From NCBI GenBank assembly GCA_040876925.1, contig JBBDOS010000003.1:61207-125206 (forward strand): a DNA stretch of 64,000 nucleotides, in the 5' to 3' direction. Shown in pieces: positions 18,001 through 21,000 of the stretch. Numbering within the stretch: the first letter of the stretch is position 1; each line of letters starts with the position of its first letter. A program made the position numbers. Source of the stretch: Candidatus Saccharimonadales bacterium. GTDB lineage: Bacteria; Patescibacteriota; Saccharimonadia; QS-5-54-17.

Positions 18001-21000
18001 TCCTGGCCATGGCCATCCAAGTATGACTCCTCCGCTAGGGTGGCTATCTCTGGGTCTGGTTCGTAGTTGCGCAAGAACCACCAATCAGCTATAGCTTGCT
18101 GGTTATAGGCGGCTGTTAGGGCTGCTGCTACAAATCCTACAGAGAGAAATAAACTAGTAACCTTTTTCCACATATTATTACATTACCATAAACGCATACT
18201 AAAGTTTTCAAACTAGATAGATCCTAATTAGAATTAATTTATTCCTATCCTGAATTGGTTTTTTTGACTTTACCTAACAGCGGCAGTTTCTGATACAGCT
18301 TCAAAGGTTAGATCGCTACCTTTAGTAGATACTTTAATGACGTCACCACTACTAAACTCACCCTCTAGCATTTTAGTAGCTATTGGATCCTCAACCATCT
18401 CTTCTAGAGCTCGGCGCAATGGTCTAACTCCCATAGTGGGCTCATAGCCAGCCTCAATCAATTTACGTCTAGCTGATGGAGTAACTACTATACCTAAACC
18501 TTTATCGCCCAATCTTTCCTCTAGCTCAGCTAAGCGAAGAGAGAAAATCCGTCTTACTTCAGCTCTGCTTAGGGCTCTAAATATAATAGTCTTATCAATC
18601 CTGTTAATTAGCTCTGGACGCATTTGTTTACGTAAGTCTTCTAGAACTTTTTCGGATACTTCTTCATGGTATAGGGAGATGTCTTCCTTAGCGCTAGATG
18701 GTTTGAACCCTAATACTGCTTCTTTCTGCAATATATCTGCTCCAATATTAGATGTCATGATGATAACTGTATTAGTGAAGTCAATCCTGCGTCCTTTAGC
18801 ATCAGTAGCATGACCGTCCTCTAAAATCTGTAACAACATATTAAATACATCTGGATGAGCCTTCTCTATCTCATCAAAGAGTATTAATGAGTATGGCTGA
18901 CGACGTATTTTCTCAGTTAGTTGTCCGCCCTCTTCATAGCCGACATATCCAGCTGGAGCACCCATTAATCTAGATAGATTATGTCTCTCCATGAATTCAC
19001 TCATATCGATTTTGACCATGGCATCCTCAGAGTGGAATAGTTCTCTAGATAGCACTCTAGCTAACTCAGTCTTACCGACTCCGCTAGGACCCATGAATAG
19101 GAACGATCCAATTGGTCTAGTTGGGTCAGCTACACCAGAACGATTACGTCTAATAGCTCTAGAGACAGCCTCAACAGCTTCTTTCTGGCCGATAACTGAT
19201 TTGGCCAAAGTTTTTTCTAAATTCACTAATTGTCTAGCTTCGGATTTAACTAAACTCTTCAGGGGAACACCGGTGATTATAGAGACTACCTCGGCTAAGT
19301 CTTCGTCACTAACCTCTAACATCTTGCCGTCTTGGGCTTCAGCACTTTCCTGCCTGGCTAGTTTCTTCTCCAAAATACTGACCTCTGTTTTGAGCTGAGC
19401 GGCATGTTCATAGTTCTCATCTGCGGCAGCTTCATCTATTTCTATGTGAAGTTTACGAATCTGTTGCCTAATCTCTCTTGATTCGGTACCGGTACCGCTA
19501 CCACGTAAAACTCTAACTTGAGCAGCAGTTTCATCAAGTAGATCTATAGCTTTATCGGGCATAAATCTATCTGGCATGTAGCGTTTAGATAGCTTGATAG
19601 TTTCTTCTAATACTTCATCAGATAGTTTAACGCGGTGATAATTCTCATAATGAGCCCGCAAGCCTCTTAGTACCTGCATGGTTTCATCATCAGTTGTTTC
19701 TGGCACCATGATTGTCTGGAATCTGCGCTCTAGAGCAGCATCCTTTTCTATATGTTTACGATACTCATCAGTAGTAGTAGCTCCTATAACTTGAATCAAG
19801 CCACGCGATAGAGCTGGTTTGATAATATTGGCCGCATCTATAGCCCCTTCAGCTGCTCCAGCACCGACTATTAGATGCATCTCGTCAATAAATAGTATGA
19901 CATCATCAACGGACTGTAGCTCCTCTAATACATGCTTCATACGCTCTTCAAATTCACCACGGTACTTAGTGCCAGCTACTAGAGATGATAGGTCTAGAGC
20001 TATGACTCTTTTATCGAGTAAGTCTTCTGGTACATATTCTGTAACAATTTTTTGAGCCAAACCTTCAACTATAGCTGTCTTACCGACTCCAGGTTCTCCA
20101 ATTAATGCTGGATTGTTCTTGGTTCTTCTATTTAGGACGGTGACTAGTCTTTGTATTTCACCTTCCCTACCGATAACAGGATCTAACTTGTTATCTATTG
20201 CTTTAGCAGTTAAATCAAGACCGAAGAAATCTAGAGTTGGAGTCTTGCTCTTCTTCTTGACCTTACGTCTTTCCTTAGTATGTTCCTGGTAGTGATATTG
20301 CTGATTACGTAAGTATTCTTGCAACTCATCACGAACCTCAACTATATCTATATCCATATCATTTAGTAATATCGAAGCTCTGGTGTTTTTCTGTGAAAGA
20401 GTAGCAAATAGAATATGTTCTGTACCGCACATCTGCTGACCAAAATCTTTAGCTATCTTCCAGGATAGGGATAGTGTTAATTTAGCAGTTTCGTTCAAAT
20501 TCCTAGCATCTGCTGTAGTTGTAGAAGTTAGAGTCTGCTGGAGAGATTTAGGAGTCAGACTTAGTGCCATCCTAGCTTTATCGAAATTAACACCAGCATT
20601 TTTAAGCACTTTAGCGCCAATCGAACTATCTTGTTTTAATACTCCTAGTAAAATATGTTCAGTACCGACATAGCTAGCACCTAGTGCGCGGGCAATATCA
20701 TTAGCAATACGCAAACTAGCTTGGGCGTTTTCGGTTAATTTGTCTTCAAAAGATGAATCATTCACTTGCATATTCTCCTAATATTGTATCACTAAAACGA
20801 CTTGTAGATGTCTATACTTACTATTTTATTTAATTAGCACTCTACAATCAAGAGTGCTAATAGAAGATTTAGCAAAATATCACTCCTAAACCTAGTCCTC
20901 AAAAGGGCTATAGCTACATCACTTGGTGATATTTATAGAAACTTATACCTGTATTTAAGACTACTCTTCTTCGCTAGTTTCTTGGTTTTCTTCTTCACTA

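What the first reader, a model, noticed from the sequence alone, without database searches (positions are those of the whole stretch)
20834..20860. Second exact CIRCE upstream of clpC, adjacent to a TTGCTA -35-like hexamer
Two perfect copies 16.7 kb apart, both promoter-proximal to Clp components, are unlikely to arise by chance in a 64-kb AT-rich window. No other copy is visible here.
Basis: seen in the sequence. Interest (0 to 1): 0.65.

Follow-up and report, generated by a model that had tools for sequence, protein, structure and literature searches.

The report
HrcA operator fused to clpC promoter
The palindrome is a genuine, conserved heat-shock repressor (HrcA) binding site wrapped around the promoter of the clpC protease gene in a Saccharibacteria genome, which is an ordinary kind of switch found at less usual target genes.

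Summary
An exact CIRCE (TTAGCACTC-N9-GAGTGCTAA) lies at 20834-20860, 62 nt upstream of a minus-strand clpC gene. A second exact copy at 4122-4148 lies 19 nt upstream of clpP. The next-best site in the window has 5 mismatches, and 0 of 100 shuffles gave two sites.

The window is from a Saccharimonadales (Patescibacteria/CPR) genome. TTGCTA (20870-20875) has no -10 partner and is already lost in a relative whose ClpC is 96% identical.

The -35 hexamer (TTGATT) sits inside the CIRCE spacer, and a -10 (TAAAAT for clpC, TAGAAT for clpP) follows 5-6 nt after the right arm. Arms, spacer TTGA and TAnAnT are the invariant blocks in footprints of both genes. clpP is leaderless, with its ATG 6-7 nt after the -10.

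The same operator-promoter fusion precedes hrcA, dnaK, groES, clpP and clpC in metagenomic contigs and in a Saccharibacteria MAG. In Peregrinibacteria and Gracilibacteria the clpC CIRCE spacer holds the -10 (TATAAT) instead.

The most likely mechanism is HrcA repression by promoter occlusion, extended to Clp genes where no CtsR box or ctsR operon is seen at them. This is a new member of a known kind, of moderate-low interest.

The parts
20834..20860 (-). CIRCE operator upstream of clpC. In gene orientation it reads TTAGCACTC (20860-20852), TTGATTGTA (20851-20843), GAGTGCTAA (20842-20834).
   Evidence: Exact match to the consensus. The arms are invariant in relatives with 96-71% ClpC identity. 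It is present upstream of clpC in 26 of 80 genome loci, all of them Patescibacteria.
20846..20851 (-). Predicted -35 hexamer TTGATT, embedded in the CIRCE spacer.
   Evidence: The promoter scan pairs it with TAAAAT at 17 nt. The TTGA is invariant in the footprint. Relatives have TTGACC, TTGACG or cTTGCAt at this place. In 120 metagenome loci selected only for TTGA, the next two bases are CA in 61.
20823..20828 (-). Predicted -10 hexamer TAAAAT, 5 nt after the right arm.
   Evidence: T, A, A and T at hexamer positions 1, 2, 4 and 6 are invariant in 6 of 6 relatives. A -10-like hexamer occurs at this spacing on the gene side in 82 of 118 metagenome loci, against 15 of 118 on the mirror side.
20814..20818 (-). 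Inferred transcription start of the HrcA-controlled promoter (about 7 nt after the -10). The CIRCE would then lie upstream of the transcript.
   Evidence: This is inference from hexamer positions. It is supported indirectly by leaderless clpP and hrcA starts and by second operators that begin at this offset in dnaK loci.
20870..20875 (-). It is probably not functional.
   Evidence: It has no -10 partner at 16-18 nt and is not conserved in the 96%-identity relative L204.
20783..20791 (-). TGATACAAT, a conserved extended -10-like motif 11 nt before the clpC ATG. It may be a second, HrcA-independent promoter or a 5'UTR element.
   Evidence: TGnTAYAAT is present at this place in 5 of 6 aligned relatives. 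Its function is not resolved.
18270..20771 (-). clpC (833 aa). GGAG at 20778-20775 is the likely Shine-Dalgarno sequence. A GTG at 20765-20763 is an alternative start used by relatives.
   Evidence: Pfam finds Clp_N, AAA, AAA_lid_9, AAA_2 and ClpB_D2-small. The best PDB matches are ClpC of S. aureus and B. subtilis in one stretch, while ClpB matches only in two stretches. The sequence has an LGF loop and a UVR-like motif.
17217..18173 (-). Gene for a 318-aa protein with an N-terminal hydrophobic segment, an HEMLH (HExxH) motif and a C-terminal coiled coil. It is possibly co-transcribed with clpC.
   Evidence: It is conserved between clpC and radA in relatives. No minus-strand terminator was found between these genes.
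15815..17158 (-). radA, the last gene of the possible clpC operon.
   Evidence: Pfam finds Zn_ribbon_LapB, AAA_25, KaiC-type ATPase and ChlI/Lon_C. Synteny is shown.
20961..22157 (-). nusA, the gene upstream of the operator.
   Evidence: The order nusA-[CIRCE]-clpC is conserved in Saccharibacteria loci.
4122..4148 (-). First CIRCE copy, upstream of clpP. In gene orientation it reads TTAGCACTC, TTGATTTGA, GAGTGCTAA.
   Evidence: It is conserved in relatives with 100-78% ClpP identity and in syntenic metagenome loci L117, L131, L171 and L188.
4134..4139 (-). clpP -35 hexamer TTGATT, inside the spacer.
4110..4115 (-). clpP -10 hexamer TAGAAT, 18 nt after the -35 and 7 nt before the ATG.
   Evidence: TA[G/C]AAT is conserved, and the ATG lies 6-7 nt downstream in the window and in all distinct relatives, L212-L214 (L209 and L210 are identical to the window here), so the mRNA is predicted to be leaderless.
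3494..4102 (-). clpP (202 aa).
   Evidence: Pfam CLP_protease, E = 6.8e-84. NCBIfam TIGR00493 scores above its cut-off.
4170..5447 (-). tig (trigger factor), the gene upstream of the clpP operator.
   Evidence: The order tig-[CIRCE]-clpP-rpoB is shown.

Best explanation
The 27-bp palindrome is an HrcA operator (CIRCE) fused with the sigma-70-type promoter of clpC in a Saccharimonadales (Patescibacteria) genome. The -35 hexamer lies in the operator's 9-bp spacer. The right half-site fills most of the 17-bp stretch between -35 and -10, and the left half-site lies just upstream of the -35.

An HrcA dimer bound to the two arms would therefore cover the -35 and the promoter spacer and exclude RNA polymerase. 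When HrcA loses activity (classically when GroEL is titrated by unfolded proteins or heat), the promoter opens. The clpP gene 16.7 kb away carries the same fusion and is expressed as a leaderless mRNA.

Several things are shown here. The sequence matches the consensus exactly and is non-random. Arms, -35 and -10 are conserved in orthologous regions. The same design sits in front of hrcA, dnaK, groES, clpP and clpC in related DNA. HrcA genes are present in Saccharibacteria MAGs. There is no CtsR box or ctsR operon at these genes.

Other steps are inferred. These are HrcA binding, the transcription start, heat or unfolded-protein induction, and the presence of hrcA in this particular genome. A conserved extended -10-like motif nearer the start codon may give clpC an additional HrcA-independent basal promoter.
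For: The two sites are exact, while 0.06 are expected and 0 of 100 shuffles reach 2. The next-best site has 5 mismatches.

The promoter scan pairs the spacer TTGATT with TAAAAT at 17 nt (clpC) and with TAGAAT at 18 nt (clpP).

In the clpC footprint across relatives of 96-71% ClpC identity, the invariant columns are the CIRCE arms, the spacer TTGA and TAnAnT, while the upstream flank diverges completely. The clpP footprint (100-78% identity) is equivalent, and the ATG lies 6-7 nt after the -10. In L212 an extra gene separates tig from clpP, yet the operator stays next to clpP.

Among 80 genome loci chosen only by ClpC homology, 26 carry a CIRCE (3 or fewer mismatches) upstream of clpC. All 26 are Patescibacteria and none of about 33 Chloroflexota-type loci has one. 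The promoter hexamer always reads in the gene direction.

A metagenome scan for CIRCE with a TTGA spacer gave first downstream ORFs of HrcA (40), DnaK (17), GroES (8), ClpP (6), ClpC/B (5), Hsp20 (3) and DnaJ (2). In those loci the unconstrained spacer positions 5-6 are CA in 61 of 120. A -10 at the right spacing occurs in 82 of 118 on the gene side and 15 of 118 on the mirror side.

HrcA homologues are named from Candidatus Saccharibacteria and Patescibacteria MAGs. In GCA_018062265.1, CIRCEs with TTGACT spacers precede hrcA-grpE and dnaK-dnaJ. The HrcA winged-helix region aligns with T. maritima HrcA 1STZ residues 16-101.

No CtsR box lies near either clp gene, and nusA, not ctsR-mcsA-mcsB, precedes clpC.

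The consensus and the classical mechanism are described in PMC3842655. A CIRCE overlapping a -35 is reported for Myxococcus groEL2 (PMC9040617). HrcA control of clpB and lon in genome-reduced Mollicutes is reported in PMC5138195.
Against: No hrcA, groEL or dnaK gene is in the 64-kb window, so the regulator is shown only for the lineage and not for this genome.

The lineage's HrcA is short (about 235-241 aa) and lacks the roughly 105-residue middle segment of canonical HrcA. Its oligomerisation and DNA binding are untested.

The TSS is not mapped. A conserved TGnTAYAAT 11 nt before the clpC start could be the main promoter, in which case the operator would sit at about -45 to -70 and repression would need another mechanism.

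About half of the related Patescibacteria clpC loci have no CIRCE at all, so the control is not universal.

The window's own hexamers match the consensus only moderately (9 of 12).
Confidence: 0.8

Rival explanations
1. The CIRCE is a classical downstream operator. The promoter lies upstream (-35 TTGCTA at 20875-20870), transcription starts before or in the palindrome, and HrcA acts on a transcribed or +1-proximal site as in the B. subtilis dnaK and groE operons.
For: TTGCTA matches TTGACA at 4 of 6 positions and lies 9 nt upstream of the operator. The classical CIRCE position is between the TSS and the start codon (established knowledge; PMC3842655 describes CIRCE in promoter regions). dnaK loci of related organisms do carry a second CIRCE at about +1.
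Against: No -10-like hexamer lies 16-18 nt after TTGCTA; the sequence there is CTTGAT, and the scan does not report this pair. TTGCTA is replaced by TAATCA in the relative with 96% ClpC identity, and nothing upstream of the arms is conserved in 5 relatives. The clpP site has no comparable upstream hexamer. With clpP only 19 nt from the operator, an upstream promoter cannot explain the conserved TAnAAT placed 6-7 nt before the ATG.
Confidence: 0.05
2. The palindrome works mainly as an RNA hairpin. It would be a transcription terminator or attenuator, or a processing or stability element, at the 3' end of nusA (and of tig for the other copy), rather than a protein operator.
For: The minus-strand RNA folds into an 11-12 bp hairpin of -14.6 and -16.5 kcal/mol, with z-scores of -3.7 and -4.7. 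It lies about 100 nt after the nusA stop and 22 nt after the tig stop. No other terminator was found there.
Against: On the gene strand the stem is followed by UUAAAUAAAAU or UUAGUUUAGAAU, which is not a U-run, and the terminator scan reports nothing on the minus strand. Conservation is of the exact arm sequence across phyla with no compensatory changes, as expected for a protein site. In L212 an inserted gene separates tig from the palindrome, which stays with clpP. The same element precedes hrcA, dnaK and groES whatever the upstream gene.
Confidence: 0.07
3. The CIRCE is a real HrcA site but has little effect on clpC. Most transcription comes from the proximal extended -10 promoter (TGATACAAT, 20791-20783), which HrcA bound 40-70 bp upstream does not block.
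For: TGnTAYAAT is conserved in 5 of 6 close relatives at a fixed distance from the start codon. Clp genes usually need basal expression (general knowledge).
Against: A start about 7 nt after TACAAT would fall inside the GGAG Shine-Dalgarno sequence and leave a 4-5 nt leader, which fits poorly with the conserved SD. The motif is absent from more distant Saccharibacteria that keep the CIRCE promoter. Purifying selection on the CIRCE, -35 and -10 block at clpC argues that this promoter matters.
Confidence: 0.15
4. The two palindromes are chance matches or remnants of a duplicated or mobile sequence with no regulatory role.
For: None beyond the modest G+C content (about 40%) of the window.
Against: 0 of 100 shuffles give two sites. 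The flanks of the two copies are unrelated. Both positions are conserved in orthologous loci of many genomes.
Confidence: 0.01

Closest known systems
[quoted passage not shown]
   Same: The operator consensus TTAGCACTC-N9-GAGTGCTAA is identical. The location is promoter-proximal. An HrcA homologue with the same winged-helix region exists in the lineage. hrcA, dnaK and groES carry the same operator, and hrcA is autoregulated (PMC3842655).
   Different: The targets here are clpC and clpP, which in Bacillus belong to the CtsR regulon. The operator is interleaved with the promoter (-35 in the spacer) instead of lying between +1 and the start codon, so it is probably not transcribed. The lineage's HrcA lacks the middle roughly 105 residues.
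HrcA regulon of genome-reduced Mollicutes (dnaK operon, clpB, lon; tandem CIRCE copies), PMC5138195
   Same: In a small genome with few regulators, HrcA control extends from chaperones to AAA+ protease or disaggregase genes. Tandem operators occur at dnaK.
   Different: The phylum is different (Patescibacteria). The targets are clpC and clpP rather than clpB and lon. There is a single operator at each clp gene. The promoter hexamer is embedded in the spacer.
CtsR regulon of Firmicutes (ctsR-mcsA-mcsB-clpC operon, clpP, clpE)
   Same: The same genes (clpC and clpP, with radA downstream of clpC) are placed under one stress repressor.
   Different: No CtsR heptad direct repeat lies near either gene. 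nusA rather than ctsR-mcsA-mcsB precedes clpC. The operator is CIRCE.
Myxococcus xanthus groEL2 promoter, where the CIRCE overlaps the -35 region (PMC9040617, citing Zhuo et al. 2018)
   Same: The CIRCE overlaps the -35 element, so repressor and polymerase compete for the same DNA.
   Different: That case is a sigma-32-dependent chaperonin promoter in a large genome. Here it is a lineage-wide sigma-70-type design used for the whole regulon, including Clp genes.
Streptococcus salivarius clpP, dually controlled by CtsR and HrcA (Chastanet and Msadek 2003, J Bacteriol 185:683; cited in PMC3842655, paper itself not held)
   Same: It is a precedent for a CIRCE upstream of clpP.
   Different: There the CIRCE co-occurs with a CtsR box. 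Here CIRCE is the only recognisable operator.

Membership tests
CIRCE / HrcA operator | 9-bp inverted repeat TTAGCACTC-N9-GAGTGCTAA with a 9-bp spacer | tested here: met
   There are 0 mismatches at 20834-20860 and 4122-4148. The consensus is as given in PMC3842655.
CIRCE / HrcA operator | It lies in the promoter or 5' region of a proteostasis gene, on the gene's side | tested here: met
   It is 62 nt upstream of clpC and 19 nt upstream of clpP, overlapping the predicted -35 and promoter spacer.
CIRCE / HrcA operator | The position is conserved in orthologous regions | tested here: met
   26 of 80 ClpC-selected genome loci carry it. Footprints were made for clpC and clpP.
CIRCE / HrcA operator | The HrcA repressor is encoded in the same genome | not testable with these tools
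In the lineage, HrcA homologues come from Saccharibacteria and Patescibacteria MAGs, and hrcA-grpE-dnaK-dnaJ with CIRCEs is present in GCA_018062265.1.
CIRCE / HrcA operator | The core regulon (hrcA, dnaK, groES/EL) carries the same operator | tested here: met
   This was tested in related DNA, not in this genome. The first ORF downstream of a CIRCE with TTGA spacer is HrcA in 40 loci, DnaK in 17 and GroES in 8. L202 is shown.
CIRCE / HrcA operator | HrcA binds the site and the gene is derepressed by heat or unfolded protein | not testable with these tools
   This needs EMSA or footprinting and expression data.
CtsR regulon (class III heat shock) | CtsR box, the direct heptad repeat GGTCAAANANGGTCAAA, upstream of clpC or clpP | tested here: not met
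   Only 3 hits with 2-3 mismatches were found, at 5055, 35042 and 40236. None is near a clp promoter, and 16 of 100 shuffles do as well.
CtsR regulon (class III heat shock) | ctsR-mcsA-mcsB genes precede clpC | tested here: not met
   nusA precedes clpC. No CtsR family hit appeared among the window ORFs scanned.
Intrinsic terminator | G+C-rich stem followed by a T/U run on the transcribed strand | tested here: not met
   No minus-strand terminator-like site was found at either locus. The tails are UUAAAUAAAAU and UUAGUUUAGAAU.
ClpC (class I Clp/Hsp100 ATPase that docks on ClpP) | Clp_N repeats, two AAA+ modules, a short middle domain with UVR-like motif, and a ClpP-docking [LIV]G[FL] loop | tested here: met
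   There is a single-stretch match to S. aureus and B. subtilis ClpC, while ClpB matches are split in two. The sequence contains ...EAVLGFKPS... and ...[15 protein letters not shown].... Assigning these as the docking loop and the UVR-like motif is by recall of ClpC features.

The most novel reading that the evidence does not exclude
In Patescibacteria (CPR), a shortened HrcA that lacks the usual middle (dimerising) insert may be the single master repressor of the whole proteostasis set (hrcA-grpE, dnaK-dnaJ, groES/EL, hsp20, clpP, clpC). It would act through operators built into the core promoter. In Saccharibacteria the sigma-70 -35 hexamer occupies the CIRCE spacer, and in Peregrinibacteria and Gracilibacteria the -10 hexamer occupies it. 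The operator register would thus have shifted by about 23 bp between lineages while always keeping one half-site in the -35/-10 gap.
Probability: 0.45. Interest if true: 0.5.

Novelty: new member of a known kind. Interest (0 to 1): 0.36.

Why it matters
CPR/Patescibacteria are mostly uncultured, have tiny genomes and very few transcription factors, and almost nothing is known about how they regulate genes. Searches of the held library found no paper that links HrcA or CIRCE with Saccharibacteria, Patescibacteria or the candidate phyla radiation.

This locus gives a concrete, testable regulatory unit. It has a defined operator, a defined promoter (which also serves as a handle on CPR promoter consensus and leaderless starts), and a predicted regulon that joins chaperones and Clp proteolysis under one repressor. 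That parallels what happened independently in Mollicutes.

It does not change the understanding of HrcA-CIRCE itself.

Tried and rejected
- **Chance.** Rejected by shuffles and by the gap between 0 and 5 mismatches.
- **TTGCTA as the -35.** Rejected for lack of a -10 partner and lack of conservation.
- **CtsR control.** No CtsR box and no ctsR operon were found.
- **Terminator reading.** The hairpin is stable, but there is no U-run, conservation is of sequence rather than structure, and the element stays with clpP when a gene is inserted after tig.
- **ClpB instead of ClpC.** NCBIfam ClpB and ClpA models score below their cut-offs, while PDB ClpC matches run end to end.
- **hrcA, groEL or dnaK in the window.** None was found.
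- **hrcA in the 80 clpC genome loci.** tblastn gave no hits.
- **Rfam and tRNA scans of the window.** They found only one tRNA-Leu.
- **Exact look-up of the window ClpC protein.** It is not on record. The exact ClpP is on record in two Saccharimonadales MAGs.
- **Degenerate CIRCE in clpC loci that lack one.** Nothing better than 6 mismatches was found, so the operator is truly absent there.
- **Chastanet and Msadek 2003.** The paper could not be read because it is not held.
- **L016.** Its CIRCE lies upstream of nusA next to a run of N (a masked stretch or assembly gap), so it was not interpreted.
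Full report
**1. Observation**

The + strand at 20834-20860 reads TTAGCACTC TACAATCAA GAGTGCTAA, an exact match to the CIRCE consensus TTAGCACTC-N9-GAGTGCTAA (consensus as quoted in PMC3842655). 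A search allowing 3 mismatches finds only this site and 4122-4148, both exact. 0.06 sites are expected per window, and 0 of 100 dinucleotide-preserving shuffles gave two. The next-best 27-mers have 5-6 mismatches.

**2. Gene context**

All relevant genes are on the minus strand.

- The first neighbourhood runs nusA (20961-22157), the CIRCE, an 833-aa Clp ATPase (18270-20771), a 318-aa protein (17217-18173) and radA (15815-17158).
- The second runs hisS, tig (4170-5447), the other CIRCE, clpP (3494-4102) and rpoB, which runs off the window start.

The ATPase is ClpC-like. It has Clp_N, two AAA modules and D2-small. It matches S. aureus and B. subtilis ClpC structures end to end, whereas ClpB matches are split in two. 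Its sequence has an LGF loop and a UVR-like motif.

No minus-strand terminator separates clpC, the 318-aa gene and radA, so they may form an operon.

The window carries no hrcA, groEL, dnaK or ctsR. No CtsR box lies near either clp gene.

**3. Organism**

ClpC relatives in species-representative genomes are Candidatus Saccharibacteria/Saccharimonadales (up to 67% identity), followed by Peregrinibacteria, Gracilibacteria, Peribacteria and Chloroflexota. The large protein collection holds closer Saccharimonadales MAG proteins, at 96% and 78% identity. The exact ClpP and its upstream region occur in Saccharimonadales MAGs GCA_040904145.1 and GCA_040879745.1. The window is therefore from a Saccharimonadales (Patescibacteria/CPR) chromosome.

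**4. Promoter anatomy**

Read in gene direction, the two operators are:

- clpC: TTAGCACTC-TTGATTGTA-GAGTGCTAA
- clpP: TTAGCACTC-TTGATTTGA-GAGTGCTAA

The consensus scan pairs the spacer's TTGATT with TAAAAT (17 nt, clpC) and with TAGAAT (18 nt, clpP) just after the right arm.

**5. Comparative test, unbiased by the motif**

Among 80 genome loci retrieved only through ClpC homology, 26 have a CIRCE with 3 or fewer mismatches upstream of clpC (one outlier, L016, has it upstream of nusA). All 26 are Patescibacteria, and none of about 33 Chloroflexota-type loci has one.

- **Saccharibacteria-type loci.** The spacer holds TTGACn at position 1 or cTTGCAt at position 3. The right arm is followed after 5-6 nt by TATACT, TATAAT or TACAAT, often with TGn in front.
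- **Peregrinibacteria, Peribacteria and Gracilibacteria loci.** The spacer begins with TATAAT-like hexamers. TTGAC occurs exactly 8 nt upstream of the left arm in 12 of 14.

The arms are palindromic, so the constant gene-ward orientation of these hexamers serves as an internal control. About half of the Patescibacteria clpC loci have no CIRCE, even a degenerate one, so this control is patchy.

**6. Phylogenetic footprints**

For clpC, five relatives at 96, 78, 74, 73 and 71% ClpC identity were aligned. The invariant columns are the arms, the TTGA of the spacer and T-A-n-A-n-T of the -10. Everything upstream of the left arm diverges, including TTGCTA, which is TAATCA in the 96% relative.

For clpP, relatives at 100, 92, 84 and 78% identity show the same conserved blocks. 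The ATG lies 6-7 nt after the -10 in every case, so the mRNA is predicted to be leaderless. In L212 an extra gene lies between tig and clpP, yet the operator stays directly in front of clpP. This argues against a tig terminator role.

**7. Regulon and regulator in the lineage**

A metagenome scan for TTAGCACTC-TTGA-N5-GAGTGCTAA returned 120 loci.

- The two unconstrained bases after TTGA are CA in 61 of 120 loci, where about 7.5 would be expected if all 16 dinucleotides were equally likely.
- A -10-like hexamer at spacing 16-18 is present on the gene side in 82 of 118 loci, and at the mirror position in 15 of 118.
- The first downstream ORFs cluster as HrcA (40), DnaK (17), GroES (8), ClpP (6), ClpC/B (5), Hsp20 (3) and DnaJ (2).

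Four of the ClpP loci share the order tig-[CIRCE]-clpP-rpoB, and the ClpC loci share nusA-[CIRCE]-clpC.

Most of the HrcA proteins are only 226-245 aa. They score just below the NCBIfam hrcA cut-off, in two stretches. Against 342-358-aa HrcAs they lack about 105 middle residues. They keep the winged-helix region that aligns with T. maritima HrcA 1STZ. Members are named from Candidatus Saccharibacteria and Patescibacteria MAGs.

In Saccharibacteria MAG GCA_018062265.1, CIRCEs with TTGACT spacers precede hrcA-grpE and dnaK-dnaJ. Sixteen of 17 dnaK loci carry a second CIRCE that starts 18-20 nt after the first right arm, which is where +1 is predicted. This is independent support for the promoter assignment.

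**8. Mechanism**

The best-supported reading is repression by occlusion. One HrcA half-site lies just upstream of the -35, the -35 lies between the half-sites, and the other half-site fills the -35/-10 gap. Bound HrcA and RNA polymerase therefore cannot coexist on this DNA.

Release of HrcA under proteotoxic stress is inferred from the classical system (PMC3842655), not shown here. Because +1 is predicted about 18 nt after the right arm, the CIRCE is not part of the promoter's own transcript.

A conserved TGnTAYAAT (window TGATACAAT, 20791-20783) 11 nt before the clpC start may be a second, HrcA-independent promoter or a UTR element. This is unresolved and is the main uncertainty about how strongly HrcA controls clpC.

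**9. Rivals**

- An upstream TTGCTA promoter with a classical downstream operator is contradicted.
- A terminator or RNA hairpin role has some basis, since the hairpin is stable (-14.6 and -16.5 kcal/mol). However, it lacks a U-run, and conservation is of sequence with no compensatory changes.
- Chance or a repeat remnant is excluded.

**10. Comparison with the known**

This is the HrcA-CIRCE system. The differences are the target genes, the operator position and the shortened HrcA.

- **Targets.** clpC and clpP belong to the CtsR regulon in Firmicutes. Here there is no CtsR box and no ctsR operon.
- **Operator position.** The operator is interleaved with the promoter rather than lying downstream of +1.

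Each difference has precedents:

- HrcA controls clpB and lon in Mollicutes, with tandem CIRCEs (PMC5138195).
- A CIRCE overlaps the -35 of Myxococcus groEL2 (PMC9040617).
- S. salivarius clpP is reported as dually CtsR- and HrcA-controlled (Chastanet and Msadek 2003, cited in PMC3842655).

Searches of the held library found no paper connecting HrcA or CIRCE with Saccharibacteria, Patescibacteria or the candidate phyla radiation.

**11. Verdict**

The element is real, functional-looking and conserved. It is a new member of a known kind: an HrcA operator at clpC and clpP in an unstudied phylum, with a neat operator-promoter fusion.

Interest is moderate-low (0.36). It is useful as an entry point into CPR gene regulation but does not challenge current understanding.

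Noticed in passing
L093:1252-1950, L098:642-1346, L122:5151-5885 (-), L184:1459-2169; proteins P0036, P0061, P0070, P0106: The HrcA proteins encoded directly downstream of these CIRCEs are mostly only 226-245 aa. Compared with 342-358-aa HrcAs they lack about 105 middle residues, which by recall of the T. maritima structure is the inserted dimerising domain. They keep the winged-helix and C-terminal parts. Several are annotated from Saccharibacteria and Patescibacteria MAGs.
   Followed up: partly
L081, L101, L102, L104, L123, L190 and other dnaK loci (second site starts 18-20 nt after the first right arm): 16 of 17 dnaK loci carry a tandem second CIRCE (TTGGCACTC/TTGGCAATC-N9-GAGTGCTAA) that starts at the predicted +1. 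dnaK thus has two operators, while the window's clpC and clpP have one each.
   Followed up: partly
L019, L023, L026, L037, L043, L048, L050, L063, L065, L066, L069, L074 (about 130-180 nt upstream of clpC): In Peregrinibacteria, Peribacteria and Gracilibacteria the clpC CIRCE spacer starts with TATAAT-like hexamers, and TTGAC lies exactly 8 nt upstream of the left arm. The -10, not the -35, sits inside the operator, a register shift of about 23 bp relative to Saccharibacteria.
   Followed up: partly
window 17217-18173 (-): This 318-aa protein has no Pfam or NCBIfam family. It has an N-terminal hydrophobic segment, an HEMLH (HExxH metalloprotease-like) motif and a C-terminal coiled coil. It is conserved between clpC and radA in relatives. 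In L186 its homologue lies between clpC and the CIRCE-clpP unit, which suggests a link to the Clp system.
   Followed up: partly
window 20783-20791 (-): TGATACAAT is an extended -10-like motif 11 nt before the clpC ATG. It is conserved as TGnTAYAAT in 5 of 6 close relatives. It may be a second promoter or a 5'UTR element. Relatives also start clpC at the GVN... GTG that corresponds to window 20765-20763.
   Followed up: partly
window 4100-4115 (-); L212, L213, L214 around position 1490-1503: clpP appears to be leaderless. Its ATG is 6-7 nt after the conserved -10 and no Shine-Dalgarno sequence is present. Many hrcA genes in the metagenome loci show the same pattern, with the start 17-21 nt after the right arm.
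   Followed up: yes
L085, L089, L121, L157 (G+C 0.62-0.69): In these high-GC contigs an exact CIRCE with a TTGAC spacer precedes small Zn_ribbon_8 (FmdB-like) proteins. This could be an unrecognised HrcA target outside CPR. It also shows that a -35 in the spacer is not confined to Patescibacteria.
   Followed up: no
window 3411-3439 (-) and 1-3235 (-): rpoB follows clpP directly (the order tig-clpP-rpoB is conserved in relatives). It has its own strong promoter-like site, TTGACA-17-CATAAT (11 of 12 matches).
   Followed up: no
L016:2397-2700: In this Saccharibacteria locus the CIRCE-promoter unit lies upstream of nusA-clpC. It is followed by a short hairpin plus T-run and a run of N flanked by a duplicated segment. 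This may be an assembly artefact or a small transcript.
   Followed up: no
window ORF set scanned (7052-63872): The window also encodes a WhiB-family regulator and two trypsin-like (HtrA-type) peptidases. Neither has a CIRCE nearby, since there are only two sites in the window.
   Followed up: no
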